NCBI GenBank assembly: GCA_041559695.1
Contig: JBFFCW010000001.1
Span: 1 to 52,789, forward strand
Direction: 5' to 3'
Source: Desulfobacterales bacterium
GTDB taxonomy: Bacteria > Desulfobacterota > Desulfobacteria > Desulfobacterales > JAHEIW01
DNA length: 52,789 nucleotides
The translations under genes were made by a program, and so were the position numbers. Positions 2,053-29,099 of this stretch are shown here, in pieces. The notes under the pieces were generated by a model. The model saw only the letters and a list, made by a program, of their open reading frames with translations. It did not search any database and was not told the DNA's origin. The first letter of the stretch is position 1. Each line of letters opens with the position of its first letter.

Positions 2053-3954
2053 ATGAAATCGCCATCTAAAAAACCTGCCGTGCCCTCTGAACATCGGCCA
2101 GAGGAGCATACTCAGACCCGCAGCCGCCAGATAACGCAATCCGACAAGGTTCTCGGCCCGACTAACAGTAGATGGGATACGGCCCGCTGGCACGTTCCCA
2201 GGGCCCTGTGTACAGATCACAAAAAATTCGCCATCTCCGGGCAATTCGACCAATGCCTTACTTTCCCGGTATTTAATACCCATGCGGAGCCGGATTACCA
2301 TGGCTGGAGCAATTTTGTCCCTGATGAAGTCAAAAAATTTATCGAAAACACGTTCTGCAGCGCGCCGGTTCAAAAGCTAAAAGAAGACCTGGAACTTGCT
2401 GAGCGCAAATATCGACGTCTGTTTGAAGGCTCCAAGGACTTGATCTTTATTGCTCATAAGGATGGCGGATTCAGAGAGGTAAACCAGGCCTGTGTGGATC
2501 TGCTGCGATATGGCAGCAAGGAAGAGCTGTTTTCACTGGGTTCGGTGGGAAAGATTTACGATAAAACCACGCACTGGGAGGTATTTAAAAGACAAATCGA
2601 TCGTGACGGGTTTATAAAAGATTTTGAAGCCCTTTTCAGAAGAAAAGACGGAAGCCGCGTACACTGCCTGCTCAGCGGCAATGCGGTTCGAAGCAAGCAC
2701 GGAGAAATCATCGGCTATCAGGGCATTGCGAAAGACATCACGGCCCGCACGGATGCCACTCGAAATTTTTTCCAGCGACATCGGGAGCTTTGGGTTTTAA
2801 CCTCCGTGGCTTTTGCCATGAACCAGACCCAGGATTTGGACGCCATCCTGATGACCGCCTTGGAAAAGGCCCTGAAGGCGTTAAATCTCACCTGCGGCGG
2901 TATCTTTTTGATCGATTACGATAAACCCGCTTTTGTGCTAAAAGCGCAACAAGGATTTCCCGGGAATGCTACAAAAAAAACCAACCCGATACGGCTTCTT
3001 GACGAAACCCTCATGCGGTCACTGCTCCAAAAAGAGCTTATCCTCACTCCCGAGCCCATATTCCCCCCTTTCAAAGCGATTCTAAAAGGTGAAAATAATA
3101 ATCCGATACAGCTTATTTGTTTTTTGATAACTGCCAAAGAGAAGGCCTCCGGATTCCTTGCATTGGATGTCCCACCGGACAGGGACCTTGCGGCCGGTCA
3201 GGATTTTCACCTTTTGGGGTCATTGGGCAATTTTTTAGGCGGTGCCATTGAGAACAACCGCTTGGCTCAGACCATCGTCCGCCACCGGGAGGAACTCAAA
3301 GGGCTTACCGCCAGGCTGTTTCATTCTCAGGAGACAGAGCGGAGACGAATTGCACGGGAATTGCACGACGAAGTGGGCCAGGCTCTCACCGGGATCAATT
3401 TTACCCTTGAGACCGTTGAAAAAATCGCCGAGAAAGAGCCCGAGCGCCTCAGGCTTCATATTTTAGAAATAAAAAAACAAATCAACGGCACCTACCAGGA
3501 AATGCGCCGCCTGTCTCATTGGCTGCACCCGGCCCTTTTAAGTGATCTCGGGCTGGAGCCGGCGCTGGACGCCTATTTGAAAAATATTTCCGAACGCTGC
3601 GACCTTCGTATCGATTTTACAATGATGGGGTTCACAAAACGGTTGGATCTCGATATCGAAAGTGTTTTGTACCGGCTCGCCCAGGAGGCGCTCACCAACA
3701 CCCTGAAGTATGCCAGTGCAACCCGGTTTAAGCTTTCCATCATCAAGAGTTTTCCCAATATTATTTTCCTGGCTCAAGACGACGGAATCGGGTTTGACGC
3801 CGAAAAATTCATGGAAAACAAGCCGACCCTCGGGCTCTTGTCCATGCGTGAGCGGGCGGCTATGCTGGGCGGCAAATTCACACTGCATACATCAAAAGGG
3901 GCCGGTGTGCGCGTACGGATCGAAATCCCCCTGAAGGAGAGCGCTGATGAGTGA
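2053..3954 (+). CDS. Cytoplasmic sensor histidine kinase (PAS, GAF, HisKA_3, HATPase; NarX/LiaS-like)
   Basis: The H-box is ELHDEVGQALTG and the C-terminal region carries an ATPase G-box (DDGIGF, LGLLSMRERA). No transmembrane segment is apparent. Its stop overlaps the start of the response regulator by 8 nt. Confidence 0.8.
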   Translation: MKSPSKKPAVPSEHRPEEHTQTRSRQITQSDKVLGPTNSRWDTARWHVPRALCTDHKKFAISGQFDQCLTFPVFNTHAEPDYHGWSNFVPDEVKKFIENTFCSAPVQKLKEDLELAERKYRRLFEGSKDLIFIAHKDGGFREVNQACVDLLRYGSKEELFSLGSVGKIYDKTTHWEVFKRQIDRDGFIKDFEALFRRKDGSRVHCLLSGNAVRSKHGEIIGYQGIAKDITARTDATRNFFQRHRELWVLTSVAFAMNQTQDLDAILMTALEKALKALNLTCGGIFLIDYDKPAFVLKAQQGFPGNATKKTNPIRLLDETLMRSLLQKELILTPEPIFPPFKAILKGENNNPIQLICFLITAKEKASGFLALDVPPDRDLAAGQDFHLLGSLGNFLGGAIENNRLAQTIVRHREELKGLTARLFHSQETERRRIARELHDEVGQALTGINFTLETVEKIAEKEPERLRLHILEIKKQINGTYQEMRRLSHWLHPALLSDLGLEPALDAYLKNISERCDLRIDFTMMGFTKRLDLDIESVLYRLAQEALTNTLKYASATRFKLSIIKSFPNIIFLAQDDGIGFDAEKFMENKPTLGLLSMRERAAMLGGKFTLHTSKGAGVRVRIEIPLKESADE

Positions 3955-4642
3955 CAGGACCATCACCGTCTTTCTAGCGGACGATCACACGATTGTGCGG
4001 CAGGGGCTGGCAAAGATGCTGGAGGAAGAACCCCATTTCAAGGTCGTCGGGCAGGCGCACAATGGGCGGGAGGCCGTAAACATGGTAGAGGCGCTGAAAC
4101 CGAACATTGTCATTATGGACATTTCCATGCCCCTCTTAAATGGTATTGAAGCAACGCGGCTAATCAAGAAAAGCCGCCCTCAGACCAAAGTCATCATCCT
4201 CAGCATGCACAGCCATGATCGGTATATCGTGGAGCTTTTCAATCTTGGCATTTCGGGTTATCTGCTGAAAGACTCGACCGGTTCGGACATCATTCAGGCC
4301 ATTTCCGCAGCTGTCAGGGGAGATACCTACCTGAGCCCCTCCATCTCGCAACGGGTCATCGAAGATTACCTTTATTTAAAAAAAAGGTCTCCTCAGGAAG
4401 ACCTTTACGACAAACTTTCCAACCGGGAGCGCGAGGTGTTCCAGATGATTGCCGAAGGGCATTCAACCAAAAAGATTTCGGACATCCTCTGTATCAGCGC
4501 CAGTACGGTTAAAACCCACCGGGCAAATATCATGGAAAAGCTACAATTCGAAAATATTTCCCAGTTGATTCAATTTGCCATACATTTGGGAATTGTTGAC
4601 TTTCAATATTCCGCGCAAAGCCCGGATGAAACGGAAAGGTGA
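3947..4642 (+). CDS. NarL/LuxR-family response regulator (receiver plus HTH)
   Basis: The receiver reads VFLADDHTIVRQGL..MDISMP and the C-terminal LuxR HTH reads LSNREREVFQMIAEGHSTKKISDILCISASTVKTHRANIMEKL. Confidence 0.85.
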   Translation: MSDRTITVFLADDHTIVRQGLAKMLEEEPHFKVVGQAHNGREAVNMVEALKPNIVIMDISMPLLNGIEATRLIKKSRPQTKVIILSMHSHDRYIVELFNLGISGYLLKDSTGSDIIQAISAAVRGDTYLSPSISQRVIEDYLYLKKRSPQEDLYDKLSNREREVFQMIAEGHSTKKISDILCISASTVKTHRANIMEKLQFENISQLIQFAIHLGIVDFQYSAQSPDETER

Positions 4643-4731: not shown

Positions 4732-5859
4732 TCATGGGTGTGAAGCAAGACGGAAGGTTTGGGATGAGCATCGTGAACCAAGGGGTTTTCTGCGAGCCGC
4801 TGTTTCCTTGCGCTCCGCCATCCAGGATTCATATACGTTGCCACTGGCGACCCTCAGCCCCATAGCGGTGATCACTTTTTTAACTTCAGCCACGGTGCGC
4901 AGCCCCTGCTCGATGTCCAAAGCGCTTTGAGAAACTCCGGCCAGCCGGTTGTTGGGGGGAATAATGGATGTGATCACATTGGCTCCGGCATCCAGGCGCA
5001 TTTTGAGCCCTTTAATTCCGTCAACATCCAGCGAAGCGGGAATTAACCGGTCCGGCATGGCCAGACGCATCACCGCGATACACAAACATTCGATCATTCT
5101 CGAAGGGCTGGACATCCCGCAAAGCGGTGTCTCGGACTGGGGCACAAAACTCATCGTCCGGGCCTGGTCCACATCATTTTGCCGCATGGCCATAATGGAA
5201 TCCGCACGATCGTTGAGGGTTTCTCCGACGCCCAGCAAGATCCCGTCTTCCACCAGCATTCCGGCACGACGCGCGGCGTTTCTTTTATCGTTGCGGTATT
5301 TAAAGCGCTGGCCGGTTCTCAATTTTTTAAATAAAACGGAATTGTGAGTTTCCTGGTACAAAGCATACCAGTCCGTCTTAATTGCGGCGAACTGATGCAG
5401 GATTTCCTCGGGGACCACACCCGGTGAAATCATAACCGGTAAGCCTGTGTTTTTCTTTACCTGCGCAATCATTTCGATAAGAATATGGAAGTTGCCGCTA
5501 TCGTGTATCATTGGGTCTTCACCCAGGGTCAGGTCAACCAGATGCACGCCTGAATTTGCCAACTCGCAAGCGATTTCGATGACTTCTTCCAAACTCTTGC
5601 GGTAACGGGGGCTTTGTTTATTCGTTTTTCTATAAAAACAAAAAGTGCAATGATTTCGGCAATAAGTCGATAAATATATGAAACCATACAGGAATAATTG
5701 GTTCGCGAAATGCAGCCGGCACACCTTGCGAGCGGCTGACATAACCAGCTGAATCGATGCAGAATCTTTTAGAGACAATAATTGAAGGGTATCATCCGGT
5801 GATGGAGAAAATCCATGGATTGCCCTATCTAAAATATCGTTTAAACGACGCTGAGGCAT
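4732..5859 (-). CDS. pylB: Radical-SAM methylornithine synthase PylB (pyrrolysine biosynthesis)
   Basis: Colinear with Methanosarcina PylB: FIYLSTYCRNHCTFCFYR (CxxxCxxC), VDLTLGEDP, ALYQETHN, VEDGILLGVG and RLIPASLDVDGIKGLKMRLDAGANVITSIIPP. ATG at 5859. About 25 extra C-terminal residues. Confidence 0.8.
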   Translation of the reverse strand: MPQRRLNDILDRAIHGFSPSPDDTLQLLSLKDSASIQLVMSAARKVCRLHFANQLFLYGFIYLSTYCRNHCTFCFYRKTNKQSPRYRKSLEEVIEIACELANSGVHLVDLTLGEDPMIHDSGNFHILIEMIAQVKKNTGLPVMISPGVVPEEILHQFAAIKTDWYALYQETHNSVLFKKLRTGQRFKYRNDKRNAARRAGMLVEDGILLGVGETLNDRADSIMAMRQNDVDQARTMSFVPQSETPLCGMSSPSRMIECLCIAVMRLAMPDRLIPASLDVDGIKGLKMRLDAGANVITSIIPPNNRLAGVSQSALDIEQGLRTVAEVKKVITAMGLRVASGNVYESWMAERKETAARRKPLGSRCSSQTFRLASHP

Positions 5860-5885: not shown

Positions 5886-7718
5886 TTAGTTTAAGCAGTC
5901 TAAAATCGCACAGGCAATTTCAGTCTCATCTTCGACAAACGAAAAGTCCCCTTCTCCCTTGACGGCCAATTGGCGGATTTTCTCACGCTTGGCCGGCGGA
6001 AAACCGATGACACCCAGTTTATCGAACCGCACCGCCGCCTCCAGGGGGTCTCCTCCCCGGTTCCAGGCCCCGTCCGTCAGAATCAGCCCTCTTTTCTCCT
6101 CAAACTTGGCTAAATGATCCAGGCCGGCTTCTAGCGCCAGTCGAATATCGGTATCCCCGCTCAATTGTAAAGCAAACAACCGTTCTAGCACCTCTTCCGG
6201 TCCTGTTGACTCATCGATACCTTTTAGAACGGTAATCTGGTTGCTAAATGCCAAAACACCGTAATCTTTTTTGAAGTGTTGGGCAATGGCGGCGGCCGTG
6301 ATGGCAGCGAGTATGATCTTCATTCCTTTCATGGAATAACTGTGATCAAACATCATGACAAATGCCCTTTTTTCCTGTTGCCTGATGTAAGATACGAGAT
6401 TATCCAAAATCCCCAGTTCCGGTTGCTGCGCATATCTTTCAAGGCTGCAGTCCAATTCTATTTCAGCGCCGTCTGAAAAACCATTTTTCAGTTTCATCCT
6501 TCCGGTGCGGCAGCCGGTGTCGGCAATTTGTTTGGCGATTTTAATGATTAAGCGACTCGCTATTTTTACAGCCAGCGCTCGAACATTTTCTTTCAACATG
6601 CCGATGACATTGGCGAATACTTCCAATGAATCTTGTTTTTCAAAAAAAAGATCAAGCTCGTCGGGATTGGCGTTAAGATAACAAGCCACACGGTAGAAAT
6701 AGGAGCAATGCTCCATTTCTTCGCTTAGAAACCAGTTTGCTACGTAGCGATCAGTTTTTTTTTTGGCCTTTAAGGCTTCATCCGAACTTTTTTCTTCATC
6801 CTCCTGTTGGGTGCCGGGGTCGGTATTCTGGTCCCCGCTGCTCTCAAAATAAGACGCGCCCTTACCCCTTAAGCTGTTCCAAAGATCTTCAATGATTTCA
6901 TCGGCGGATTTCGCCGCCATTTCATTCAACCAGATTTTGTTGGACATGGCCATCCAGGCGGATCTTAAAAAATTTTGCTCCGGTTTATCGCTCAGTTTTT
7001 GCATGCCGTTGAATAAATCAACCAGATCAATACCGGCCCGGATGGATGCGCCCAGCTTGATATCCGGGTGATTTCGCGTCTCGCGCACCATCTTGACGGC
7101 CAATTCAATGATTTTGAGGTTGTCCGATCCGGTCCGAAGTCGAACAATAGCGCGTTCCTCATCTTCGTTCTGGTATTTCATTTTGATCAGGCAAATGCGA
7201 TCCATAAAGGCGCGGCTGACTCTGACAGTGCCGACATCGTCGTAAGGGTTTTGGGCGGCGATCACGGTAAACGGACGAACAGACTTTATCGAGCCGAACC
7301 TGGGAATAGCTATTTCCCCTTCCTCCATCGGAGAAATCAGCACATTGGAAACATCCGCCGGCATCCGATTAAATTCTTCGATGTAAAGAATACCGCCTTT
7401 TTCCATGGCACTTGTTAGCGGTCCCTTCTCAAAATATTCGGGCAGGTAACTATCTGCCATCACTTTGGCCGGATTAAAATGGCCGACCAGTTTGGCGGGT
7501 GTCAGATCGACATTTCCTTCTATTATATAAAACGGAATACCGGCCGCCTTGGCGATTATCCGCAGCAAGGTTGACTTTGACGTGCCGGGCGGCCCTTCCA
7601 AAAGAATATGTTTTCCGGCTTCCATGGCCGTCAGAATCGATATTATTTCGATCTGCCGGCCGACCACCGTTTCACAGGCTTTACGATAGATTTCAGTGAT
7701 TTTAAGTTTTTGTCCCAT
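5886..7718 (-). CDS. MoxR-type AAA+ ATPase fused to a C-terminal von Willebrand factor A (VWA) domain
   Basis: Walker A GPPGTSKST, Walker B ILYIEEFN, AAQNP and AFMDR. An acidic linker follows, then a VWA MIDAS motif (DHSYSM, SGDTD, LTDG). ATG 7718 is preferred; the ORF track's start at 7733 is a GTG. Confidence 0.75.
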   Translation of the reverse strand: MGQKLKITEIYRKACETVVGRQIEIISILTAMEAGKHILLEGPPGTSKSTLLRIIAKAAGIPFYIIEGNVDLTPAKLVGHFNPAKVMADSYLPEYFEKGPLTSAMEKGGILYIEEFNRMPADVSNVLISPMEEGEIAIPRFGSIKSVRPFTVIAAQNPYDDVGTVRVSRAFMDRICLIKMKYQNEDEERAIVRLRTGSDNLKIIELAVKMVRETRNHPDIKLGASIRAGIDLVDLFNGMQKLSDKPEQNFLRSAWMAMSNKIWLNEMAAKSADEIIEDLWNSLRGKGASYFESSGDQNTDPGTQQEDEEKSSDEALKAKKKTDRYVANWFLSEEMEHCSYFYRVACYLNANPDELDLFFEKQDSLEVFANVIGMLKENVRALAVKIASRLIIKIAKQIADTGCRTGRMKLKNGFSDGAEIELDCSLERYAQQPELGILDNLVSYIRQQEKRAFVMMFDHSYSMKGMKIILAAITAAAIAQHFKKDYGVLAFSNQITVLKGIDESTGPEEVLERLFALQLSGDTDIRLALEAGLDHLAKFEEKRGLILTDGAWNRGGDPLEAAVRFDKLGVIGFPPAKREKIRQLAVKGEGDFSFVEDETEIACAILDCLN

Positions 7719-7819
7719 TGCCCCGTTTCTCACATATCCGCTAAATAGCTGATGGGTTGATAGATTGATTCGTACCTATTCAAAATTAAGTCTAAATTAC
7801 CATATGTCACGTTGGCTTT

Positions 7820-8386
7820 TCAGACAAGCAGCAGCCCGATAAAATTGACATATTCCTTTGGCGGCCATTCCACCGCCACACCGGCTTGCCGTGCCAGTTC
7901 GGTGATATCTATGCCGAAACCCTCGGGACTGGGGCGCGCTTTATAGGGGTGACGACAGGGTTCTCCCGGCGGCGCGCAGGCGTCGCACAATTTGCAGCCG
8001 CCCACGCATAGACCCAACGCCTGGTAGAATCCTTTCTCAAAAGCAGCCAATTCCAGATCAGCGACGGCTTCAGATAATTTTAGTTCAGCACTGAAATCCT
8101 GGCGATAATCATTTAGGTTTTTTATTTTTTCCCGTAGCACCACCAAAAACGCTTTACGGTAACTGCGCAAGGCCTCCCTGAATTCCGCCACACTTGGAAT
8201 ATGGGGTGGGCAAACCTTGCAAACGTCAAAATATTCACACAAGGGAACCTGGCACTTTAAGCGCATGCTCTGACGGGGATTAATTTCTTTGACTTCTATC
8301 GGGTAAATATCGACGCCCCACTTGCGCGCCACCGCCTCAAAGGTATCTGCTAAAGTCTGGCCGTTATCCATATCCCCTTTGCTCAC
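7820..8386 (-). CDS. DUF2284 Cys-rich predicted metal-binding protein
   Basis: LKCQVPLCEYFDVCKVCPP and CVGGCKLCDACAPPGEPC. It is a paralogue of the 42515 gene. The start (GTG 8386 or ATG 8371) is uncertain. Confidence 0.65.
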   Translation of the reverse strand: MSKGDMDNGQTLADTFEAVARKWGVDIYPIEVKEINPRQSMRLKCQVPLCEYFDVCKVCPPHIPSVAEFREALRSYRKAFLVVLREKIKNLNDYRQDFSAELKLSEAVADLELAAFEKGFYQALGLCVGGCKLCDACAPPGEPCRHPYKARPSPEGFGIDITELARQAGVAVEWPPKEYVNFIGLLLV

Positions 8387-8466: not shown

Positions 8467-9867
8467 TTAAAACTTCATTTTTTCCTTCAAACGATTGACG
8501 CCGGCGATTTCGATATCGAGCAGCTCGGCAATTCTTACTTTTGCCTCAATTCCCTTGGCGCAACCCGGGACAGACGTAATGATCCCTAAGTCCAGCTCCT
8601 CGCGGACCTCTCTCATTACGTGTACATCCGACAGGTCGGCCGGGGAAACTTTTAGCTTTTTGGCAACGTAGGCTTTTGCGTCGTTGATCCGCATCTTGCG
8701 GGCCATCTGCATGCGGGCCACCAGATCTCCGGCGGTCCTGATTCCACCCATTCCTGCTGCCACTCCGTGAGCTATCGACATCCCCATGGGATCTCCCACG
8801 CCAATCTACAAACCGTCTACTTTGGCAATTTCCACCATGGCCTTCGACGCCCGGCTGACTGAATCGATAGGCGGTGTCTCGAATATCGGCGAGCCGCCAA
8901 CACCCATTCCCATGTTCACATGGATGGGGATGTTGGACGCTTCAACGCACGCTTTTACAAAGGTCACCGCTCTGGCCACATTCCACGGCATGTTTTTGCT
9001 GGGCTTGGTGTTTACCACCGGGCCAAAAATATCCGCCCCGGCTTGCTCCACGAGCTTGACTTGATCATGGCAGTACAAACCAGCGAGTTGCTGACCTTCA
9101 TATTCCAGACCGCCGTGCATACCGAGTACAAATTCTCCGGCCATTCCCACTTCAATGCACATATCGGTGTTTTTTTTCAGATGCTCGACGGCGTGCAGGG
9201 TGGCCTTAAAATCCGTATCGCCCGCAGCCCCGGTGGTATCGAAGTTTATCCCGTCACAACCGACCTCTGCGAGTCTTTCGCATACATAAACCATGTCCCG
9301 AATGGCGTGCTCCACCGCCCCTTCCTGGGCCTCATAGGACTCCTGGATCTTGCCCGCGGGCAGCAAATCCGAAGGATTTCCAAAAGGCCCGTCGGGACTG
9401 TAGTACAGACCCAGGTTTGGCATGGCGCCATAAAAGAGCGGCAGAATCGTTACCAGCAGCGCATTTTCCATTTCCTGCTGTTCCATAGCAATAACCGGCT
9501 TTACCGGCTTAAAGCTATAATCGATATGTCCCAGCTCCATGGTATCGGCACAAAATGCCCTTTCATGGACCTGGATGCCCTGCACCCGGCTCAGCGGTAT
9601 GCCGACACCGCTGTTGCCCTGGTCTCCCATCACCCGCAGGGTTCCGATATCGTGGGTGACGACCACTTCGTTCCCCGGCTCCACACTTACAAACCGAGTG
9701 GGGTTGGTAAAGATGTCCAGCAGGATGTCCAGATCATCTTTTGACAGCGGCGCTATCTTGCCCTTGTCGGCGGCGTCTGCAGTGCCCGCCTCCAAGTCGC
9801 TCATTATTTCCTCGGAAGTCATTTCAATGAGCGCTCCGTCCCCCCGTCTAGTAAGGTATTTCGCCAT
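8467..9867 (-). CDS. mtbB: Dimethylamine:corrinoid methyltransferase MtbB with in-frame UAG (Pyl) at 8806-8808, codon 354
   Basis: ORFs 8806-9885 and 8467-8799 are in the same frame and are separated only by TAG. The junction [16 protein letters not shown] equals the Methanosarcina MtbB VDG(I/L)-Pyl-IGVGDPLGM. The alignment holds over the full length ([24 protein letters not shown]). A strong RBS (GGAGGTGA) precedes ATG 9867. Confidence 0.9.
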
Positions 9868-9881
9868 ATTCTCACCTCCTT

Positions 9882-10526
9882 TCAACTGAATATTTCTTTG
9901 AGTTTCATCACCGTATCACCGGCGTTTTCCGCCCAAAAAGTCGCACCGATTTTGGCAGCCCAGTGTTCAGTGGTCGCCGCACCGCCGACCATAGTGGTCA
10001 GCTTGTCTCGAATTCCCGCGTCTTTCAGGGCTTGCTCAAGGGCTTTTTGCCCCACCTGGGTCGTTGTCATCAGCGCCGAGGAACCGACAACATCTGCGTC
10101 GGCCTCTTTTGCTTTTTCCACAAACGTCGCAATCGGTACATCTCGGCCCAGATCGATGACCTCAAAGCCGTAAACCCTAAGCATGGTGGCGACAATGCCT
10201 TTGCCGATGTCATGCACGTCCCCTTCGACCGTCCCGATCACAACCTTGGCCAGTTTCTTGCCGACCTGGTCTGCGGGCATGGCCTGTTCCAGTACCTTTA
10301 CCGCTGCCGTCATCGCCTCGGACGCGATGATCAGATGCGGTAAAAAGACCTCTCCGCGATCAAAGAGGTCCCCCAGTTTCCGGATGCCTTCAGAAAGACC
10401 TTTTTCGATCATCTCAACCGGATCGAGACCCTCATCTAAATATTCCTGGGCCAATTTCACTGCAGCTTGCTCATTTGCATCAATGATGTGCTGGGCAGCC
10501 TTTTCCATGAATTCCGCTTTGTCCAT
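9882..10526 (-). CDS. mtbC: B12-binding corrinoid protein (MtbC-like)
   Basis: DxHxxG motif (GDVHDIGK) plus SALMTTT and GGA motifs. It lies immediately upstream of mtbB. Confidence 0.85.
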
Positions 10527-10696: not shown

Positions 10697-12394
10697 TCAA
10701 GTTTCACCCTTGGCAGCATACAATTTTTTTTGTACAAAGACTTTTTCCTGACAGGATTTTTCACATCTCCTGCAGGCAAGCCCATTGCATCGGGCCAGAT
10801 CGATGGTAATAGAAAATTTCCCCTCCTCCTCTTCCAGGACAAGGGCCTCCTCGGGACATTCTTCGATACAGTCCTCACAGCCAACGCAGCCTTCGAAAGC
10901 AATCGTTTTATGTTCACCAATATCGGAAATAATCTCCAGGCCCTTGATCCCAAGATCCGGAATATCCTTTTGCACTGTTTTGATGACTTCTGGAATCATC
11001 TCAGTCTCTTTTAACGGTGGAAGACCGAATTTTTCCAAAAACTGCTGGTACTGATTCATGGGCATCCCCTGGGTCCAATAAGAAAGTTCCAGGATATACA
11101 CCTGTTCAAATACCTTGGACTCAGCGAACATGCAGTGATGCTGTCGAAGATCATCGGCGATGCGCTTCATGCGCCAGAGTTCATCCACACGCTTGACCAT
11201 ATCCCTGGCCATGGCCAGGGACGAGTTTCCCACCTGGTAGATTTTGTTAACCCCGGGCGGTATCATGCCGATTTCCTGGGCTTTGAGCGCATCTACGTAA
11301 GTACCAGAAGCACCGGACATATAAGCGGTTTCGACATCTTCCAGTCGGATCCCGGCCTCCTGACACAGGGAGATATGACCGGCCCTGACCGCGCCGATGG
11401 CCTTGCCGGCTTCCTCAAGATCTTTCTCCGTAAACTTGATCCCGTCGGGCAAATGGATTTTTGCGTCCGAAGTATGGATCTTGGGAAGCCGAATGGTATG
11501 GGTTTTAAGGTTCTGGCTGATCAGGGCAATAACCCCGGTCCCGGTTATGCCGACGGCTTTTTCCAGTCCTTTTTCAAGCAACGCTCCCGTGGCTGGATCC
11601 ACCGTATCGCCCGGCTGAACCGTCATCGTGTCATCGAGGATAAATGTTTTCATCCGCCTGCTGATCGCTTGATCTTCCTGCGGGTTGTCTGCAACGCCGA
11701 TACCTTCACCTTTTAACGCCTCAAACTCGACATCGCAGATGGCCCCGGGAAGCGCCAATAGTCCATCTTCTATGTGTTGACCTTCCAGGGCCGGTCCGGC
11801 GGCTGTTGAACCGGTATAAACCGTGCCGTCGACGATCAGGGCCATCTCGGCATTCGTACCGTAGTCTGTGGTAATGGCGATTTCATCGCTGTTCAGCATG
11901 CCGGTCTGAATCATCATCGCCAGTGCATCGGCACCGATTTCATGCCGAACCGCCGGGGGAACCAGGATATCCGTGTTTGGCGGCAGATTGAGCGCGGAAA
12001 TTTCGCGAGCTTTCATGATTTGCGCGTCTCTTTTGGGAGCCACCACTCCCAAAGACGCCAGTTTCCGTTTTCCCGCATAGGCAAGATCCCTGATTTCGAT
12101 CTCCTGGAAAAGGGAAAGCTGGATGGGGTTGCCACAGACCGCCAGCCTGACCACCTCATTATTTTCGATCTTTAGATGGTCAATTACCCGGTTGACGGCA
12201 TGCACCACAATTTTGTGGGCTCGATCAAGACCCATCTCAACGGCAAAATGAAGGTGATCCATGACATTGGCGCCCGGAAGGGGATGCCGGGTGGTGACAG
12301 CGGTGGACAAAATCCTTCCATTTTGATCCAGATCGAGGGCCTGCCCGCGAAAACCACTGGTGCCCAAATCCAATGCAACACCCAGTCTTGCCAT
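10697..12394 (-). CDS. ramA: RamA-type methylamine corrinoid activation protein (ASKHA ATPase plus C-terminal 2x[4Fe-4S] ferredoxin)
   Basis: Near-colinear with M. barkeri RamA: ALDLGTSGFR, RLAVCGNPIQLSLFQ, IGADALAMM, TDYGTNAEMAL and LSYWTQGMP. The C-terminus carries CVGCEDCIEECP and CRRCEKSC. Confidence 0.9.
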   Translation of the reverse strand: MARLGVALDLGTSGFRGQALDLDQNGRILSTAVTTRHPLPGANVMDHLHFAVEMGLDRAHKIVVHAVNRVIDHLKIENNEVVRLAVCGNPIQLSLFQEIEIRDLAYAGKRKLASLGVVAPKRDAQIMKAREISALNLPPNTDILVPPAVRHEIGADALAMMIQTGMLNSDEIAITTDYGTNAEMALIVDGTVYTGSTAAGPALEGQHIEDGLLALPGAICDVEFEALKGEGIGVADNPQEDQAISRRMKTFILDDTMTVQPGDTVDPATGALLEKGLEKAVGITGTGVIALISQNLKTHTIRLPKIHTSDAKIHLPDGIKFTEKDLEEAGKAIGAVRAGHISLCQEAGIRLEDVETAYMSGASGTYVDALKAQEIGMIPPGVNKIYQVGNSSLAMARDMVKRVDELWRMKRIADDLRQHHCMFAESKVFEQVYILELSYWTQGMPMNQYQQFLEKFGLPPLKETEMIPEVIKTVQKDIPDLGIKGLEIISDIGEHKTIAFEGCVGCEDCIEECPEEALVLEEEEGKFSITIDLARCNGLACRRCEKSCQEKVFVQKKLYAAKGET

Positions 12395-12536: not shown

Positions 12537-13550
12537 TCAATGCGCCTCGGCCGCTTCCAGCATGGCCTTGAGGTTCAGCGTCGTCGTCGCCGGCCCGACC
12601 GCACAGCCCGGTGCCAGGATCTGGATGCCGTCGGCAATGGCCGTCTCGGCTTCCTGTTTTATCTCTTCGGGCCCATGCAAAAATAGGGTGGTCGCCACAT
12701 CTATTCCGCCCAACAACACAATATCCGGTCCGCATTTCTCCCTGGCAACCCGAGGATTTGTTTTCGGGTCCAGGCTTAGAACAGTCGCGCCGGTTTGCCC
12801 CATCCATTCGACAATGTTGTCGACCTTGCCGCAGATATGCAAAAGCGTCGGGACAGAGATGGCTTCAAACTGTCTGGTCTGATATTCCAATTCATAATCT
12901 TTGTATGTTTTCGGCGCAATCAGCTCAGGCGAGGCGGTCATATCTTCGCAGGAAATGATGTCGGCCCCGGCATCGATAAGCGCTTTTGCCAGCGTGGTTC
13001 CGGCCTTTTCCCCGATCTCCAACCAGGGCCGCATCTTTTCGGGTGCTTTGAAAGACGCCTTGAGAAGGGGAACCGTATCGATAAGAGAACCGGCAATGGT
13101 AAAAGGCCCGATGATTCCAGCCACCACCGGCACTTCATCGCCCAATTCCTTTTTTAAAATGCCGACGGCTTTGAGCAGTTCCGGAATAAACCCCCGCGAA
13201 AGAAAATCATCGGGGAATACCGGCGTGTCGTCAAGATTAAACGCCGGCGGGTGATCGATCCCCGGAATTCCTTCAACACCGCCCGGGCCCTTTCCCGGTT
13301 TTATCTTAGATCCTAAAGCGCGCGCTTCAAACGTTTGACAGAATGGAACTCTGACCGCGTCAAAACCCAGGACCGTATGTGAGGCAAGCGCCAGTTTGGC
13401 CATGGCTTCCCCGTCTTCATGCGCTTTGGGCCAAAAGGCTTGAACCGCATCCATTTGCTCGTAAGTTGCCATAGAGTTGGCTCCAAAACACGGCATCCGG
13501 TCCGGCTTTTCATGGTTGAGAACCGCCATAACACGTTCTTTCGAATTCAT
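12537..13550 (-). CDS. UroD-family methylcobamide methyltransferase (MtbA/MtaA-like)
   Basis: MNSKERVMAVLNHEKPDRMPCF..VRVPFCQTFEARALG..LHICG is typical of the MtaA/MtbA/UroD fold. RBS GGAGG before ATG 13550. Confidence 0.8.
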   Translation of the reverse strand: MNSKERVMAVLNHEKPDRMPCFGANSMATYEQMDAVQAFWPKAHEDGEAMAKLALASHTVLGFDAVRVPFCQTFEARALGSKIKPGKGPGGVEGIPGIDHPPAFNLDDTPVFPDDFLSRGFIPELLKAVGILKKELGDEVPVVAGIIGPFTIAGSLIDTVPLLKASFKAPEKMRPWLEIGEKAGTTLAKALIDAGADIISCEDMTASPELIAPKTYKDYELEYQTRQFEAISVPTLLHICGKVDNIVEWMGQTGATVLSLDPKTNPRVAREKCGPDIVLLGGIDVATTLFLHGPEEIKQEAETAIADGIQILAPGCAVGPATTTLNLKAMLEAAEAH

Positions 13551-13941: not shown

Positions 13942-15435
13942 TTATTTCTCCGCGGCTTTTGCGGCTTCTTCCGCTTCTAAAGCTTCCTGCTCTTCAACGA
14001 TGGAACGTAGTTTCGACGACACATCTTTGGGCAACGGAACCGGCTTATGGTTTTCCAAAATGTGGCGGGCTTCTTCTGCAGCCGCCTCGGCCATATCTTT
14101 GCCGCCACGTTTTTGCCAGGCCCCTCTCATCCGCCGGTCGATCAGCTTTACCTTGGACTGCTCCGGTCCCATATACTGCCGGGTATGCTTCTGAGCTAAA
14201 AAGTCCTTTCCGGCCCCGACCCTCTTGATGAGTTCAACCGCCAGGGTGTCATCGTTGATGGGTACACCTTGAACAACTCTTTTGCACATCCGGGCGATCT
14301 CATTATCAATCACAAGCTGGGCAAAGCTGAAAGTCACACCTAACTCCAACATACCCATCCCATAAATGAGATTTGCGCCCGCCAATGCCGGCAGCAGGGA
14401 GGTCATGGTTTTCTCATGCCCTGCTTGGACATCGGAAACCTTGCTGTCAGCCTACGCACCGGCGACATAGCTGGGTAAAAGGTACTTGCGTGCCAATGCC
14501 GTAACACCGGCACTGATCATGCCCAGTTCCGGTGCTCCCACCGGAGCGGTGGCATAGGTTAAATCAAAGGTTGTAGTCGAGCTGCCGTAAATCACCGGAG
14601 CGCCTTTGGCAGTCAACTGGGCCAGAACAATGCCGGACAACACTTCGGCATTGTGGGTCACCAGGGTCCCGCCAACGGTGACAGGGGAAGAAGCCCCTGA
14701 CATGGCCATGGAAAGAACGTTCACCGGAACCCCCGCCTTGGCGCACTCGATAATGATTTCAGCCGTATGAGTATGCAGCTCCAACGGGCTGGTGGGACAC
14801 ACCAGAGCGGAAACCAGGGGCCGCCTCCGCAGCTCGTCCATTCCGCCAATGATTTCGGCGGCCATTTCAAAAAACTTTTTGGCCCCGTCTCCGCCGGTCA
14901 GGTCAATGTGCTGACAGTGCTTGGACGTATTGCTCAAAAACGCCTCGGCTTCGTTTAAATCGGTGGCCCGTTCGACGTCTCTGGCCACCACTGCGCTGGA
15001 GTAAACATCCACATTATCCATGGCGTCACATGCCAGCGCGGTATGTCCGACATCCTGTTTGTTGGATTCCCGGAACTCACCGTTAAAGGGATCCACCACC
15101 ATGACGCCGGCGCCAAAGCTGGTGAATCCGACTCTGCCACCCTGCAGGGTGACATCATATTCCGGGGTTCGTCCGGCCAGCAGGATGGTGCTGGGAGCGG
15201 AACTAATGGCATCTTCCACCAGATGGGGAGGAATTCGAACATGGTTGTTCTCACGGTCCACGTAGGCGCCGCCATTTTCGAAAATATCCATGGCTTCGTC
15301 ACAATGAACCCCGACGCCGTAGTTTTGCAGGACGTCCAAGGTGGCGAGATGAATCTCGGTCAATTCATCATCGGTGAACATGCTCAACCCCCAGCCATCC
15401 ATGGTGCTGATGCCTGGTTGAAGTCCTCTGATCAT
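13942..15435 (-). CDS. mttB: Trimethylamine:corrinoid methyltransferase MttB with in-frame UAG (Pyl) at 14452-14454, codon 328
   Basis: ORFs 14452-15444 and 13942-14406 are in the same frame. Reading through gives [49 protein letters not shown], against M. barkeri [40 protein letters not shown] before ATG 15435. Confidence 0.9.
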
Positions 15436-15455
15436 AAGTATCACCTCCTTTGCTG

Positions 15456-16100
15456 CTATTTGATTAATTCTTTGGCTTTGAGAACCGTATCGTTCGCATC
15501 CTCAGCATAGCAATCGCAACCGATTTTATCCGCCCATTCCTGGGTGGTTGCCGCTCCACCGATCATGGTTTTAAAATTATCCCTGATACCGGCTTTGCGC
15601 AGCTTTTCTTCAAGGATTTTTTGCCCACCCATGGTCGTGGTCATCAGGGAAGAAGAGCCCAGTATATCCGGTTTAAGCTCTTTGGCCTTCTCAACGAACT
15701 CGTCGATCGGCACATCCCGGCCCAGATCATGAACTTCAAAGCCATAAACTTTCAGCATTGTCGCCACAATCCGTTTGCCGATATCATGGATGTCACCTTC
15801 GATGGTTCCAATGACGACGGTGCCTAACGATTCTGCAACTTCTTCCTTTGGAATATGCGGTTCCATTATCGCAATGGCCTTTGTCATGGCCTCGGCGGCT
15901 ACCAGGACACCGGGAAGGGGAATTTCTTCATTTGCGAAACCGTCACCCACCTCGGTCATTGCCGGTGACAAGCCTTCATTAATGATTTCCACCGGGTTGA
16001 TCCCCTCTTCAATGACTTTTTTGGCCATGGCCTCGGCAGCTTCCTCGTCACCCTGCACGACAGCCTGCCGGGCCTCTTTTAACAGGTCTTCCTTGCTCAT
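15456..16100 (-). CDS. mttC: B12-binding corrinoid protein (MttC-like)
   Basis: GDIHDIGK, SSLMTTT and GGAATT motifs. RBS [9 protein letters not shown]. It is the first gene of the minus-strand string and ends in TAG, with a TGA five codons later. Confidence 0.85.
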   Translation of the reverse strand: MSKEDLLKEARQAVVQGDEEAAEAMAKKVIEEGINPVEIINEGLSPAMTEVGDGFANEEIPLPGVLVAAEAMTKAIAIMEPHIPKEEVAESLGTVVIGTIEGDIHDIGKRIVATMLKVYGFEVHDLGRDVPIDEFVEKAKELKPDILGSSSLMTTTMGGQKILEEKLRKAGIRDNFKTMIGGAATTQEWADKIGCDCYAEDANDTVLKAKELIK

Positions 16101-16655: not shown

Positions 16656-16975
16656 TCTATTACACCTTGACTAATTAAACTTCTTATTATTAACTGGCCG
16701 AACTAGCGCCTTTTGCAGACAAGAGGCGGCAACGGCCAATCGGCAGCCTGCCGTTTCAGTTACTGAATTCGGGAAAGTTTAGATTCTACCTCGATTGAGC
16801 GTTTTTTGAAAAGAAGTGTACCGGATTTGTGTCCATCAGGATTTGCGAAAACCGCAGGCATACCTGTGGCCAGATCGATGATTTTCGTCCCGCCCAGGCG
16901 AGAATGCGCAAGAGACCGGTACGTCTCAAGCAAAAAATCGCTCAATTCAGGTCCTCATGAAAGGAGGTGAAATTA

Positions 16976-17614
16976 ATGTCTGAAAAGGAAATGTTCGAGC
17001 GTTTGAAAAAAAGCGTTATTGATATGGACGAGGAGGGCGCCAAGGCGGCGGCCAATGATGCGATCGCACAAAAGCTTGATCCCCTTGCCTGTATTGAAGG
17101 GGGTTTGTCCGCAGCCATGAAGGTGATCAGCGACAAGTTTGATAGCGCCGAGATTTATGTGCCGCAGATCATTCTTGCGGCCGAGGCCTTTACAGCCGCC
17201 GTAGACATTCTGGCATCCCACATCGAGGGAGGCTACGCCGGCAAGGGTAAAATTATCCTTCATACCGTTGAAGGGGACATTCATGACATCGGCAAAAACA
17301 TTGTCGGGATCCTGTTGCAGGCCAACGGCTTTGAGGTTATCGATTTAGGGCGGGACGTGGCTGTCGTTGATGTGGTTGACGCAGCCGTTGAGAAGGGTGT
17401 TGATGTGATTGCCGGTTCGGCTCTGATGACGACCACGATGCCTGCTCAACGGGAGATCATGGATGAGTTGAAAGACCGCGGCATCAAGGACCAATTCAAG
17501 TGCCTCTTTGGTGGCGCCCCCACGAGTCAGGAATGGGTGGACCAGATCGGCGCTGATGCATGGGCGGAAAACGCCGCGGAAGCAGTGACTGTTGTCAACG
17601 AATTAACGAGCTAA
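16976..17614 (+). CDS. mtmC: B12-binding corrinoid protein (MtmC-like)
   Basis: GDIHDIGK, SALMTTT and GGAPT motifs. AAGGAGGTGA at 16961-16970 precedes ATG 16976. The ORF track's start at 16967 lies inside the RBS. Confidence 0.85.
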   Translation: MSEKEMFERLKKSVIDMDEEGAKAAANDAIAQKLDPLACIEGGLSAAMKVISDKFDSAEIYVPQIILAAEAFTAAVDILASHIEGGYAGKGKIILHTVEGDIHDIGKNIVGILLQANGFEVIDLGRDVAVVDVVDAAVEKGVDVIAGSALMTTTMPAQREIMDELKDRGIKDQFKCLFGGAPTSQEWVDQIGADAWAENAAEAVTVVNELTS

Positions 17615-19531: not shown

Positions 19532-19690
19532 TTCTTCAACATATGATTTCTCAGATCTATTTCTTAAAAATAAGTGACGAGTGATCATTTTTTGGCAAGA
19601 GAGGACATTAAATGGAGAGGTTTTTTTTGGGTAAGCCCTCTTTATTCATTGCTCCAATCAATCAATAATCTATATCAAGGAGGTGGCGTT

Positions 19691-20965: not shown

Positions 20966-21012
20966 TGAGACATCATCCATCGCTGGCATGCTGCAACCTG
21001 TAAATGACCAAT

Positions 21013-21041
21013 GGGATCCAGGCGCTCAGCGCCTTGATCCC
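21013..21041 (+). terminator. Attenuator or terminator hairpin between the substrate-binding protein gene and the permease genes
   Basis: GGGATCCAGGCGC-tca-GCGCCTTGATCCC (13-bp stem, 1 mismatch), followed by ATTTATT. Confidence 0.45.
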
Positions 21042-21068
21042 ATTTATTGAGGAAAGGGGGAAGACCGC

Positions 21069-21938: not shown

Positions 21939-22010
21939 TTTACGTCCCGAAAATTGTGCAACTTAGTGAAGTTAACGGAATTTATTGAGACGTGGTGCTT
22001 TCCACTCACA

Positions 22011-22159
22011 CATGGAATAATGGAATGATGGAAGATTGGAATGTTGATTTTAAAGGAATTTTTTGAATATTCGGATAATAGCAACTTGGGTGTCCATAAG
22101 AAAATAGCCAATGAACCCATATCCCGGTTTTCCAGAACCCAATATTCCAACATTCCAAT
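22011..22159. repeat. GGAAT-rich repeats and a 12-bp inverted repeat inside an unusual 259-bp livH-livM spacer
   Basis: GGAATAATGGAATGATGGAAGATTGGAATG at 22013 onward. ATTGGAATGTTG (22035-22046) and CAACATTCCAAT (22148-22159) form a perfect inverted repeat. Confidence 0.6.
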
Positions 22160-22197
22160 TGTGAGCGAAGCGAACTAGCTTGTAGTGAGCGTGAGTA

Positions 22198-23184: not shown

Positions 23185-23352
23185 GCCACCGATAGGGGAA
23201 ATCAGAAGAAATCGGAGCAGGCAACGATACCATTGAGATTAAAATCCGGGTGACTGCTTCACAGACCACCGTAAGGATTGTTTAAGCGATGCGTTCTGAT
23301 TGAGGACAGACTTTTGCAATGTGTTTACGGTTAGGATGGGAGAAGACCGCCA

Positions 23353-24105: not shown

Positions 24106-24106
24106 A

Positions 24107-27594: not shown

Positions 27595-27781
27595 TTATTA
27601 TCATGTAAAATATTTAAATCTCGGCTGTATTGCGCCCATAAAACGGGGGGTATAAAGCTGGGATTCAAAATATCACGACTGAATAATATAAAAGTGGCAC
27701 TAAGGAGGTGATAAAGCGCCGGCAAGGAAAAGCGTAATTAAACTTTAAATGGACTCAATTGTTGGCACGGAGGTGATTACA

Positions 27782-29089: not shown

Positions 29090-29099
29090 CAGGGAAAAT

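What the first reader, a model, noticed from the sequence alone, without database searches (positions are those of the whole stretch)
8467..9867. mtbB (dimethylamine methyltransferase) carries an in-frame UAG, completing a tri-, di- and monomethylamine set in a bacterium
TAG at 8806-8808 joins ORFs 8806-9885 and 8467-8799. The junction [14 protein letters not shown] matches the MtbB Pyl-356 context. Together with mtmB and mttB, the window holds all three Pyl-dependent methylamine methyltransferase classes, each with its own corrinoid protein. It also holds an archaeal-type RamA and an MtbA-like gene. To my knowledge such a complete set is usual in Methanosarcinales but reported in few bacteria.
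Basis: partly seen in the sequence, partly recalled or inferred. Interest (0 to 1): 0.65.

Follow-up and report, generated by a model that had tools for sequence, protein, structure and literature searches.

The report
Pyrrolysine dimethylamine methyltransferase gene in Desulfobacterales
This is a genuine bacterial gene for a dimethylamine methyltransferase whose in-frame UAG stop codon almost certainly encodes pyrrolysine; it sits in a sulfate-reducer-type (Desulfobacterales) locus with the tri- and monomethylamine enzymes, but such loci are already known and are common in public bacterial genomes.

Summary
The minus-strand gene 8467-9867 is a full-length mtbB (TIGR02368, 660 bits). It has one in-frame TAG, at 8806-8808 (codon 354 of 466), in the same VDG[LI]-O-[IV]GVGDP context as Methanosarcina codon 356. 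The 112 codons after the TAG are under strong purifying selection, and all 87 mtbB homologues examined carry TAG at that codon. The window also holds Pyl-type mttB and mtmB, each with its own corrinoid protein, plus RamA, an MtaA/MtbA-family zinc methyltransferase and pylB.

The contig is bacterial (Desulfobacterales) and not chimeric: the same locus was assembled in at least five MAGs. MtbB1 falls in a bacterial clade (Desulfobacterota, Bacillota, Actinomycetota; 70-92% identity). Archaeal enzymes are only 60-65% identical, so a recent archaeal transfer is not supported.

Bacterial Pyl-mtbB was reported in 2007, 2021 and 2023. About 25 GTDB species carry this clade, and at least five have all three classes within 10 kb. 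This is a new member of a known kind, of modest interest. pylS, pylT, pylC and pylD were not found in the sequence available.

The parts
8467..9867 (-). mtbB (MtbB1): dimethylamine:corrinoid methyltransferase, 466 codons with Pyl at codon 354, TAA stop
   Evidence: TIGR02368 660 bits, full length. Translation. 70-93% identical over all 466 residues to bacterial homologues.
8806..8808 (-). In-frame UAG, inferred pyrrolysine codon
   Evidence: TAG at the homologous codon in 87/87 mtbB copies. Same context as Methanosarcina codon 356.
8709..8808 (-). Match to Rfam PYLIS_2 (RF02509), the first 100 nt from the UAG
   Evidence: 81.5 bits against a gathering score of 36. Hairpin 2 (cols 73-92) has 5 invariant pairs and one covarying pair. 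Hairpin 1 is poorly supported.
8578..8742 (-). Codons 376-430: stretch of suppressed synonymous variation downstream of the UAG
   Evidence: Mean codon identity at conserved residues is 0.62, against 0.42 in codons 1-353 (Mann-Whitney p=9e-6). GCC GGA GAT CTG is kept even in Actinomycetota with GC3 of 0.85-0.88.
9882..10526 (-). mtbC-like cognate corrinoid protein
   Evidence: TIGR02370 242 bits (above cutoff). MtbC equivalog 241 bits, below its cutoff of 350.
10697..12394 (-). ramA: reductive activase with a C-terminal 2x[4Fe-4S] domain
   Evidence: TIGR04270 764 bits against a cutoff of 500. 45-47% identical to archaeal RamA.
12537..13550 (-). MtaA/MtbA-family (URO-D fold) methylcobamide:thiol methyltransferase homologue
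   Evidence: PRK06252 305 bits and TIGR01463 265 bits, both above cutoff. MtbA equivalog 234 bits against a cutoff of 600. Best PDB match is 4AY7 MtaA, with HxC...C conserved.
13942..15444 (-). mttB: trimethylamine methyltransferase with in-frame TAG at 14452-14454 (probable start ATG at 15435)
   Evidence: TIGR02369 738 bits. Rfam PYLIS_3 86.6 bits at 14355-14454.
15456..16100 (-). mttC-like corrinoid protein (its stop codon is TAG)
   Evidence: TIGR02370 254 bits. Stop-codon survey.
16967..17614 (+). mtmC-like corrinoid protein
   Evidence: TIGR02370 232 bits.
17642..19027 (+). mtmB: monomethylamine methyltransferase with in-frame TAG at 18248-18250; its terminal stop is also TAG
   Evidence: Pfam PF05369 699 bits, positions 2-449 of 450. 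Homologues are all cut at 202 aa.
7820..8386 (-). DUF2284 predicted metal-binding protein
   Evidence: PF10050 147 bits. Conserved next to bacterial mtbB and absent from 54 archaeal loci.
5886..7733 (-). Fused MoxR-type AAA+ ATPase and vWA domain protein
   Evidence: AAA_5, AAA_3, VWA_CoxE and VWA matches. Conserved with bacterial mtbB only.
4732..5859 (-). pylB: methylornithine synthase, first step of pyrrolysine synthesis
   Evidence: TIGR03910 441 bits against a cutoff of 348.
2053..4642 (+). PAS/HisKA_3 histidine kinase plus NarL/LuxR-type response regulator, the likely regulator of the locus
   Evidence: Pfam families on the called genes. Synteny with L007 and L013.
46625..48007 (-). Second, divergent Pyl-mtbB (MtbB2) with TAG at 46961-46963, overlapping the upstream DUF1638 gene (48025-48792)
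   Evidence: TIGR02368 505 bits. PYLIS_2 67 bits. 56% identical to MtbB1. Separate clade.

Best explanation
The gene 8467-9867(-) is a functional mtbB of an uncultured Desulfobacterales bacterium. Its single internal UAG is translated as pyrrolysine, giving a 466-residue dimethylamine:corrinoid methyltransferase.

The gene belongs to a methylamine-demethylation locus laid out as mttC-mttB, mtbA-like, ramA, mtbC-mtbB, DUF2284, AAA/vWA and pylB on the minus strand. mtmC-mtmB is divergently transcribed, and a two-component regulator sits next to pylB.

Inferred mechanism, by analogy with the reconstituted Methanosarcina systems:
1. Pyl in MtbB binds and activates dimethylamine.
2. The methyl group goes to Co(I) of the adjacent corrinoid protein.
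3. RamA re-reduces inactive Co(II), using ATP.
4. The methyl group is passed on by a second methyltransferase. This could be the locus's own zinc (HxC...C) MtaA/MtbA-family enzyme acting on a thiol acceptor, or an MtrH-like or pterin methyltransferase acting on tetrahydrofolate.
5. The methyl group is finally oxidised, presumably coupled to sulfate reduction.

Shown here: gene identity, the conserved UAG, selection on the downstream frame, gene neighbourhood, and bacterial origin. Inferred: Pyl insertion, substrate, methyl acceptor and physiology.
For: - Full-length family matches for MtbB, MttB, RamA, PylB and the corrinoid proteins and for MtmB.
- TAG at the homologous codon in 87/87 MtbB copies.
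- The region after the TAG is 76-98% identical to Desulfobacterota homologues, with synonymous differences far outnumbering non-synonymous ones (22:2 with L007, 38:8 with L009).
- Rfam PYLIS_2 hit starting exactly at the TAG, and reduced synonymous variation 66-230 nt downstream.
- pylB lies three genes downstream of mtbB on the same strand (8467 versus 5859).
- The identical locus occurs in NCBI MAGs GCA_041559255.1, GCA_041555015.1, GCA_041547075.1, GCA_041573035.1 and GCA_041571755.1, and in two Logan assemblies.
- The nearest genomes are Desulfobacteraceae and Desulfobacula MAGs with the same gene order, including the regulator pair.
- A flanking alpha/beta hydrolase clusters at >=90% identity with proteins labelled Desulfobacterales bacterium.
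- GC content is even across the window, 0.46-0.54.
- Related marine Deltaproteobacteria express Pyl-MttB and pyl genes in sediments (PMC8318568).
Against: - pylS, pylT, pylC and pylD are not in the window. ARAGORN finds no tRNA and Rfam finds no tRNA. They are also absent from the further ~6 kb of contig JBFFDR010000001.1 fetched beyond the window start. Pyl decoding capacity in this genome is therefore unproven.
- TAG is not avoided: 5 of 41 genes end in TAG, including mttC and mtmB. Read-through must therefore be regulated or tolerated.
- There are no expression or proteomic data for this organism.
- The MtbA-like protein scores below the MtbA and MtaA equivalog cutoffs, and sulfate reducers are not known to make coenzyme M, so the methyl acceptor is unknown.
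Confidence: 0.85

Rival explanations
1. The TAG is a true stop. The locus would then be a pseudogene, or two separate genes of 353 and 110 residues, and no pyrrolysine would be inserted.
For: Standard gene callers split it this way in every public record. pylS, pylT, pylC and pylD were not seen in the sequence available. TAG is used as an ordinary stop in 12% of the window's genes.
Against: The 3' segment stays in frame and is as conserved as the 5' part, or more so, across three phyla, with mostly synonymous change. TAG itself is invariant in 87/87 copies, whereas a decaying pseudogene would vary. There is no start codon or ribosome-binding site immediately after the TAG. The listed GTG at 8799 lies inside the conserved motif. 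pylB is in the same gene string.
Confidence: 0.04
2. The contig is archaeal or a chimeric or mis-binned assembly, so the "bacterial" set is an artefact.
For: Methylamine methyltransferase clusters are typical of Methanosarcinales. At least one bacterial-labelled record in the scan looks like archaeal contamination: L055 'Tissierellaceae' is a 2-kb contig that groups tightly with Methanomethylovorans.
Against: - The same 40-60 kb arrangement was assembled independently in at least five MAGs and two SRA runs.
- Flanking genes are bacterial in type: NarL/HisKA_3 two-component system, Liv-type ABC transporters, CobO, and CobU/CobS/CobD just outside the window.
- >=90% cluster mates of a flanking hydrolase are labelled Desulfobacterales.
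- GC content is uniform.
- All cluster proteins are only 34-65% identical to their archaeal counterparts.
Confidence: 0.02
3. The set is a recent horizontal acquisition from methanogenic archaea.
For: Literature opinion holds that bacterial Pyl systems came from archaea by several transfers (PMC9723677). The pathway components RamA, the MtbA-like gene and the corrinoid proteins are the same kinds as in methanogens.
Against: - MtbB1 is 60-65% identical to archaeal MtbB but 70-92% identical to bacterial copies.
- In a neighbour-joining tree it sits in a clade whose sub-clades follow bacterial phyla (Desulfobacterota, Bacillota, Actinomycetota).
- RamA is 45-47%, MttB 44-51%, MtmB 48-58%, MtbA 34-36% and PylB 40-42% identical to archaeal neighbours.
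- The DUF2284 and AAA/vWA genes accompany the bacterial clusters but none of 54 archaeal ones.
- There is no compositional island.
- Any transfer is therefore old, and its direction is unresolved. The NJ tree is midpoint-rooted and archaeal sampling is limited.
Confidence: 0.05

Closest known systems
MtbB1-3 of Methanosarcina barkeri (dimethylamine:corrinoid methyltransferase, UAG at codon 356; Paul, Ferguson & Krzycki 2000, cited in PMC8318568)
   Same: Same family model, length (466 versus 467 aa) and position of the UAG. Same VDG[IL]-O-[IV]GVGDP motif, adjacent cognate corrinoid protein and RamA-type activase.
   Different: Only 63-65% identical. The host is a bacterium. The cluster carries DUF2284, AAA/vWA and pylB, which are not seen beside archaeal mtbB. 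The downstream methyl acceptor cannot be assumed to be coenzyme M, and there is no methyl-CoM reductase context.
Pyl-containing MtbB/MttB genes of the Olavius algarvensis delta1 symbiont and of marine Deltaproteobacteria (PMC1976440; PMC8318568)
   Same: Deltaproteobacterial (Desulfobacterota) hosts. In-frame UAG in mtbB and mttB. Multiple copies per genome, corrinoid protein and RamA nearby, and pyl genes split over several loci.
   Different: Those reports list no Pyl-MtmB (0 in delta1). Kivenson et al. state that MtbA is absent and the second methyltransferase is unknown. Here mtmB and an MtaA/MtbA-family gene are in the same locus.
Uncultured Desulfobacteraceae and Desulfobacula MAG loci (L007 CAZHAH010000150.1, L013, L010 Ca. 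Desulfobacula maris, L017)
   Same: 85-93% identical MtbB. Same gene order: mtbA-like, ramA, mtbC, mtbB, DUF2284, AAA/vWA, pylB, response regulator, kinase.
   Different: No mtmB lies within their 10-kb flanks. The only close mtmB neighbour in the fetched loci is L025 (86%), a proteobacterial MAG contig.
Actinomycetota and Peptococcaceae loci with all three classes (L022, L026, L028, L029, L031), and Actinobacteriota expressing Pyl-mttB and Pyl-mtbB (PMC10805028)
   Same: mtbB, mttB and mtmB, each with an in-frame TAG, lie within 10 kb, together with pylB and in some cases pylS-, pylC- and pylD-like ORFs.
   Different: Different phyla and 70-77% identity. Their pyl genes are linked, whereas here only pylB is.

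Membership tests
MtbB, dimethylamine--corrinoid protein Co-methyltransferase (TIGR02368 / PF09505) | Full-length match above the curated equivalog cutoff | tested here: met
   660 bits against a cutoff of 369, profile positions 4-464 of 466.
MtbB, dimethylamine--corrinoid protein Co-methyltransferase (TIGR02368 / PF09505) | Single in-frame UAG at the conserved active-site position (codon 356 in Methanosarcina), with the conserved flanking motif | tested here: met
   TAG at codon 354. Context [14 protein letters not shown], compared with VDGI-O-IGVGDP[LM]GM. TAG in 87/87 homologues.
MtbB, dimethylamine--corrinoid protein Co-methyltransferase (TIGR02368 / PF09505) | Adjacent cognate corrinoid protein (MtbC) | tested here: met
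   9882-10526(-) lies immediately upstream. TIGR02370 242 bits, although the MtbC equivalog score of 241 is below its cutoff of 350.
MtbB, dimethylamine--corrinoid protein Co-methyltransferase (TIGR02368 / PF09505) | Pyrrolysine actually incorporated, and dimethylamine-specific methyl transfer to Co(I) | not testable with these tools
   Needs proteomics or enzymology. No solved MtbB structure exists for comparison.
Pyrrolysine decoding system (pylT, pylS, pylB, pylC, pylD) | pylB present | tested here: met
   TIGR03910 441 bits against a cutoff of 348, at 4732-5859(-).
Pyrrolysine decoding system (pylT, pylS, pylB, pylC, pylD) | pylT (tRNA-CUA), pylS (or pylSn/pylSc), pylC and pylD present in the genome | tested here: inconclusive
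   None found in the 52.8-kb window or in the ~6 kb of the same contig fetched beyond it. The rest of the MAG could not be read. Split pyl loci have precedents (PMC2933860, PMC3941956).
PYLIS_2 (Rfam RF02509, mtbB downstream element) | Score above the gathering threshold, starting at the UAG | tested here: met
   81.5 bits against 36, at 8709-8808(-).
PYLIS_2 (Rfam RF02509, mtbB downstream element) | Base-paired structure supported by covariation | tested here: inconclusive
   Across 26 bacterial sequences, hairpin 2 has 5 invariant pairs plus one covarying pair. Hairpin 1 has three pairs that are mostly unpaired. The sequences are coding and related. Synonymous sites are nevertheless constrained.
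[quoted passage not shown] | Full-length subfamily match with the C-terminal ferredoxin-type [4Fe-4S] domain | tested here: met
   764 bits against a cutoff of 500, positions 2-532 of 534. Fer4 matches at residues 495-559.
MtbA (NF041608, methylcobamide:CoM methyltransferase, equivalog) | Score above the equivalog cutoff | tested here: not met
   234 bits against a cutoff of 600; MtaA equivalog 295 against 400. Only the broader PRK06252 (305 against 244) and TIGR01463 MtaA/CmuA (265 against 235) models are passed. It is 34-36% identical to archaeal neighbours.
MtbA (NF041608, methylcobamide:CoM methyltransferase, equivalog) | Zinc-binding His-x-Cys...Cys motif for thiol activation (motif recalled from the MtaA/MT2 literature) | tested here: met
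   LLHICGKV and LAPGCAVGP align with VLHICGNV and LAPGCGIAP of MtaA, PDB 4AY7.
MttB (TIGR02369) and MtmB (PF05369), Pyl-dependent | Full-length match with in-frame TAG at the conserved position | tested here: met
   MttB 738 bits, TAG at codon 327 of the 497-residue sequence that starts at the ATG at 15435. MtmB 699 bits, TAG at codon 203. TAG in 50/50 and 21/21 homologues.

The most novel reading that the evidence does not exclude
The bacterial methylamine clusters may work differently from the methanogen paradigm in ways nobody has characterised. Three features point that way.
1. A zinc MtaA/MtbA-family enzyme is conserved in the Desulfobacterota clusters. It may methylate a thiol cofactor (coenzyme M or a bacterial analogue) in a non-methanogen.
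2. The DUF2284 and MoxR-AAA/vWA pair is found beside bacterial mtbB but beside none of 54 archaeal mtbB loci. It may be a dedicated maturation or cofactor-loading module.
3. The synonymously constrained stretch 66-230 nt after the UAG may be a functional recoding signal that lets a genome with 12% TAG stops read UAG as Pyl selectively.
Probability: 0.2. Interest if true: 0.6.

Novelty: new member of a known kind. Interest (0 to 1): 0.3.

Why it matters
If the set is expressed, this sulfate-reducer-type bacterium could strip all three methyl groups from trimethylamine (TMA to DMA to MMA to ammonia). It would then compete directly with methylotrophic methanogens for "non-competitive" substrates in anoxic sediments. 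That bears on methane budgets, and it adds a compact, well-assembled example of bacterial genetic-code expansion.

The locus is also a convenient starting point for two open questions:
- What is the second methyltransferase and methyl acceptor in bacterial Pyl-dependent methylamine pathways?
- How do bacteria that still use TAG as a stop codon control UAG read-through?

The core observation itself repeats what has been published for Deltaproteobacteria, Firmicutes and Actinobacteriota.

Tried and rejected
- ARAGORN and Rfam found no pylT or any other tRNA.
- Extending the contig past the window start gave a second RACo, a B12-binding protein and CobD/CobC/CobS/CobU, but no pylS, pylC or pylD.
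- An exact-sequence look-up of the histidine kinase failed.
- The PDB holds no MtbB relative, so structure prediction and fold search were not pursued.
- Promoter and terminator scans were at background level.
- A literature search for DUF2284 gave nothing functional.
- The named Desulfobacterales MtmB hit on a 6.8-Mb genome (P0424) has only an mtmC-mtmB fragment, with no further methylamine genes nearby. It does not provide a second complete set.
- I considered and rejected pseudogene, archaeal or chimeric contig, and recent archaeal transfer (see the rival explanations).
Full report
**Observation**

The window has two ORFs on the minus strand, 8806..9885 and 8467..8799. Translating 8467-9867(-) gives one continuous 466-codon frame. 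It is interrupted only by TAG at 8806-8808 (...[21 protein letters not shown]...) and ends in TAA. The likely start is the ATG at 9867, five bases after GGAGGTGA.

The joined protein matches the NCBIfam equivalog for dimethylamine--corrinoid protein Co-methyltransferase (TIGR02368) end to end, at 660 bits against a cutoff of 369. In Methanosarcina and Methanococcoides genomes fetched here, the TAG is codon 356 of 467, in the context VDGI*IGVGDP[LM]GM.

**Is the UAG read through?**

There is no direct evidence, but the comparative evidence is strong.

- In 86 related loci, the codon aligned to the window's TAG is TAG in 87/87 MtbB, 50/50 MttB and 21/21 MtmB copies.
- The 112 codons after the TAG are at least as conserved as the 353 before it. 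Against the closest genome, L007, they are 98% versus 92% identical, with 22 synonymous and 2 non-synonymous differences. The same pattern holds out to Actinomycetota.
- Public gene calls all truncate at 353 aa. This shows the position is universal.
- pylB (TIGR03910, 441 bits) lies three genes downstream on the same strand.
- Rfam's PYLIS_2 model hits from the TAG onward, at 81.5 bits. Across 26 bacterial sequences, only the second small hairpin has any pairing support: 5 invariant pairs and one covarying pair.
- Synonymous variation is significantly reduced in codons 376-430. Codon identity there is 0.62, against 0.42 upstream (p=9e-6). GCC GGA GAT CTG is retained even in Actinomycetota with GC3 of 0.85-0.88. 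A nucleotide-level constraint downstream of the UAG therefore exists. This agrees with Have et al. 2013 (PMC3639795). Its function is unknown.

**What else is in the locus**

- Pyl-mttB at 13942-15444(-), TAG at 14452, 738 bits, with PYLIS_3 at 86.6 bits.
- Pyl-mtmB at 17642-19027(+), TAG at 18248, Pfam MtmB 699 bits.
- A cognate corrinoid protein next to each methyltransferase: 9882-10526, 15456-16100 and 16967-17614.
- RamA at 10697-12394, TIGR04270 764 bits.
- An MtaA/MtbA-family protein at 12537-13550. It passes the subfamily cutoffs but not the MtbA or MtaA equivalog cutoffs. It keeps the HxC...C zinc motif of MtaA, PDB 4AY7.

- pylB.
- A DUF2284 protein and a fused MoxR-AAA/vWA protein between mtbB and pylB.
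- A second, divergent Pyl-mtbB at 46625-48007(-), at 505 bits and 56% identical to the first.
- A further corrinoid methyltransferase module at 36018-45664: an MtrH-like protein, a corrinoid protein, a 1150-aa RACo with an inserted GltD-like flavoprotein domain, two URO-D-family proteins and a second DUF2284.

**Origin of the contig**

- The identical RamA and response regulator occur on contigs of five NCBI MAGs and two Logan assemblies, with the same gene order. The arrangement is therefore not an assembly chimera.
- GC content is even, 0.46-0.54.
- A flanking alpha/beta hydrolase (51254-52186) is in a >=90% cluster with proteins labelled Desulfobacterales bacterium.
- The closest mtbB loci among 185,579 GTDB species genomes are uncultured Desulfobacteraceae (92%), Desulfobacula (85-88%) and other Desulfobacterales. 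These are followed by Thermincola and other Bacillota (75-84%), Actinomycetota (71-77%) and a Peptococcaceae MAG (70%). Archaea start at 65%.
- L007 and L013 share the whole order: mtbA-like, ramA, mtbC, mtbB, DUF2284, AAA/vWA, pylB, response regulator, kinase.

The contig is bacterial, order Desulfobacterales.

**Evolution**

In a midpoint-rooted neighbour-joining tree, MtbB1 sits in a bacterial clade whose sub-clades follow phyla. That clade is separate from the Methanosarcinales clade. MtbB2 forms a third, deep branch with a second copy from a Desulfohalobiaceae MAG.

All other components are 34-58% identical to their archaeal counterparts. DUF2284 and the AAA/vWA gene accompany nearly all bacterial mtbB loci but none of 54 archaeal ones. 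A recent transfer from methanogens is therefore not supported. An old inter-domain transfer of unresolved direction remains likely, as the literature assumes (PMC9723677).

**How unusual is it?**

The literature already covers most of this:

- Six Pyl-MtbB and two Pyl-MttB genes in the Olavius delta1 symbiont (PMC1976440, 2007).
- MtmB+corrinoid+MtbA+RamA in Desulfotomaculum acetoxidans, with the suggestion of CoM use (PMC2933860, 2010).
- "Most" of nine marine Deltaproteobacteria carry several Pyl-MttB genes and a Pyl-containing dimethylamine methyltransferase, and related transcripts were found in sediments (PMC8318568, 2021).
- Actinobacteriota expressing Pyl-mttB and Pyl-mtbB (PMC10805028, 2023).

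The databases agree:

- 4113 proteins hit MtbB1 at E<=1e-10, and more than 75 clusters at >=69% identity are all cut at 352-357 aa.
- MtbB2-type and MtmB-type relatives are likewise numerous.
- Five bacterial loci have all three classes within 10 kb.

What is comparatively uncommon is mtmB beside mtbB and mttB in a Desulfobacterota locus. None of the other eleven or so Desulfobacterota loci shows mtmB within its 10-kb flanks; only the proteobacterial MAG contig L025 does. Those flanks are short, however, and the Desulfohalobiaceae contig does carry mtmB elsewhere (P0408). It is also uncommon to find an MtaA/MtbA-family gene in the cluster, because Kivenson et al. reported it missing from their genomes.

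**Mechanism and caveats**

The methyl-transfer chain is inferred from the reconstituted Methanosarcina systems: MtbB-Pyl, then corrinoid Co(I), then a second methyltransferase, with RamA as ATP-dependent reductive activase. It has not been shown here.

- The acceptor is unknown. It could be a thiol, via the zinc MtbA-like enzyme, or tetrahydrofolate, via MtrH-like or pterin methyltransferases.
- pylS, pylT, pylC and pylD were not found in the window or in the ~6 kb beyond it. Split pyl loci have precedents (PMC2933860, PMC3941956).
- TAG terminates 5 of 41 genes here, including mttC and mtmB. This is typical of Pyl-using bacteria, where induction by substrate has been shown in Acetohalobium (cited in PMC3941956). 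The adjacent kinase and regulator pair is a plausible controller, by inference.

**Verdict**

This is a new member of a known kind, of modest interest (0.3). The more interesting leads are the side observations: the bacteria-specific accessory genes, the divergent MtbB2 clade, the constrained region 3' of the UAG, and the MtbA-like thiol methyltransferase.

Noticed in passing
window 46625-48792 (-): There is a second Pyl-type mtbB (TAG at 46961-46963; TIGR02368 505 bits), only 56% identical to the first and apparently co-transcribed with a DUF1638 gene. It forms a separate deep clade with a second copy in a Desulfohalobiaceae MAG. More than 120 database clusters at >=68% identity are cut at or near the same codon (333-360 aa, most at 348). 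On Tara Oceans contigs it lies beside a Pyl-mttB in a bacterial context. Its substrate may differ from that of canonical MtbB.
   Followed up: partly
window 5886-8386 (-): A DUF2284 metal-binding protein and a fused MoxR-type AAA+/vWA protein lie between mtbB and pylB. The pair is conserved beside mtbB in Desulfobacterota, Bacillota and some Actinomycetota loci, but occurs in none of 54 archaeal mtbB loci. No functional literature was found. It may be a cofactor-insertion or maturation module.
   Followed up: partly
window 8578-8742 (-): Synonymous-site variation in bacterial mtbB is significantly reduced in codons 376-430, which lie 66-230 nt after the UAG. GCC GGA GAT CTG is invariant even in very GC-rich Actinomycetota. 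The constrained stretch extends beyond the 100-nt Rfam PYLIS_2 model.
   Followed up: partly
window 37847-41299 (+): A 1150-residue RACo-type corrinoid activase (2Fe-2S, linker, middle and ASKHA C-terminal domains) has a GltD-like Fer4_20 plus FAD/NAD(P)H oxidoreductase module inserted in the middle domain. This suggests pyridine-nucleotide-driven reductive activation. Its 90% cluster has 61 members.
   Followed up: no
window 36018-45664: A separate corrinoid methyltransferase module is present. It comprises an MtrH-like protein, a corrinoid protein, the large RACo, a URO-D-family protein with HxC...C, a second DUF2284, CobO, and a URO-D-family protein lacking HxC (YIGG instead). It may supply the route from corrinoid to tetrahydrofolate, or serve other methylated substrates.
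   Followed up: no
window 4732-5859 (-) and L087 1-7112: pylB stands alone, without pylC, pylD, pylS or pylT. The contig beyond the window start carries another RACo (686 aa), a B12-binding protein and CobD/CobC/CobS/CobU. A lone pylB after the AAA/vWA gene is conserved in L007, L009, L011, L013 and L019.
   Followed up: partly
window 15456-16100, 17642-19027, 24868-25653, 33227-35581, 37065-37742: Five of 41 genes (12%) end in TAG, including mttC, mtmB itself and another corrinoid protein. The next in-frame stop lies 1-30 codons further on. Pyl-tRNA read-through would therefore add short tails to proteins of the same pathway.
   Followed up: no
window 19574-24814 and 27749-32703: Two complete Liv-type ABC transporters (Peripla_BP_6 binding protein, two permeases, two ATPases) flank the methylamine genes. 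Each is followed by a near-identical stand-alone receiver-domain protein (25650-26153 and 32730-33230). The first binding protein is 89-92% conserved beside the methylamine genes in L009 and L016. They may be amine uptake systems.
   Followed up: no
L055 (JAHDQA010000017.1, 'Tissierellaceae' MAG): This is a 2-kb contig whose mtbB groups tightly with Methanomethylovorans in the tree. It is probably archaeal contamination of a bacterial bin, and a caution against counting bacterial mtbB by MAG labels alone.
   Followed up: no
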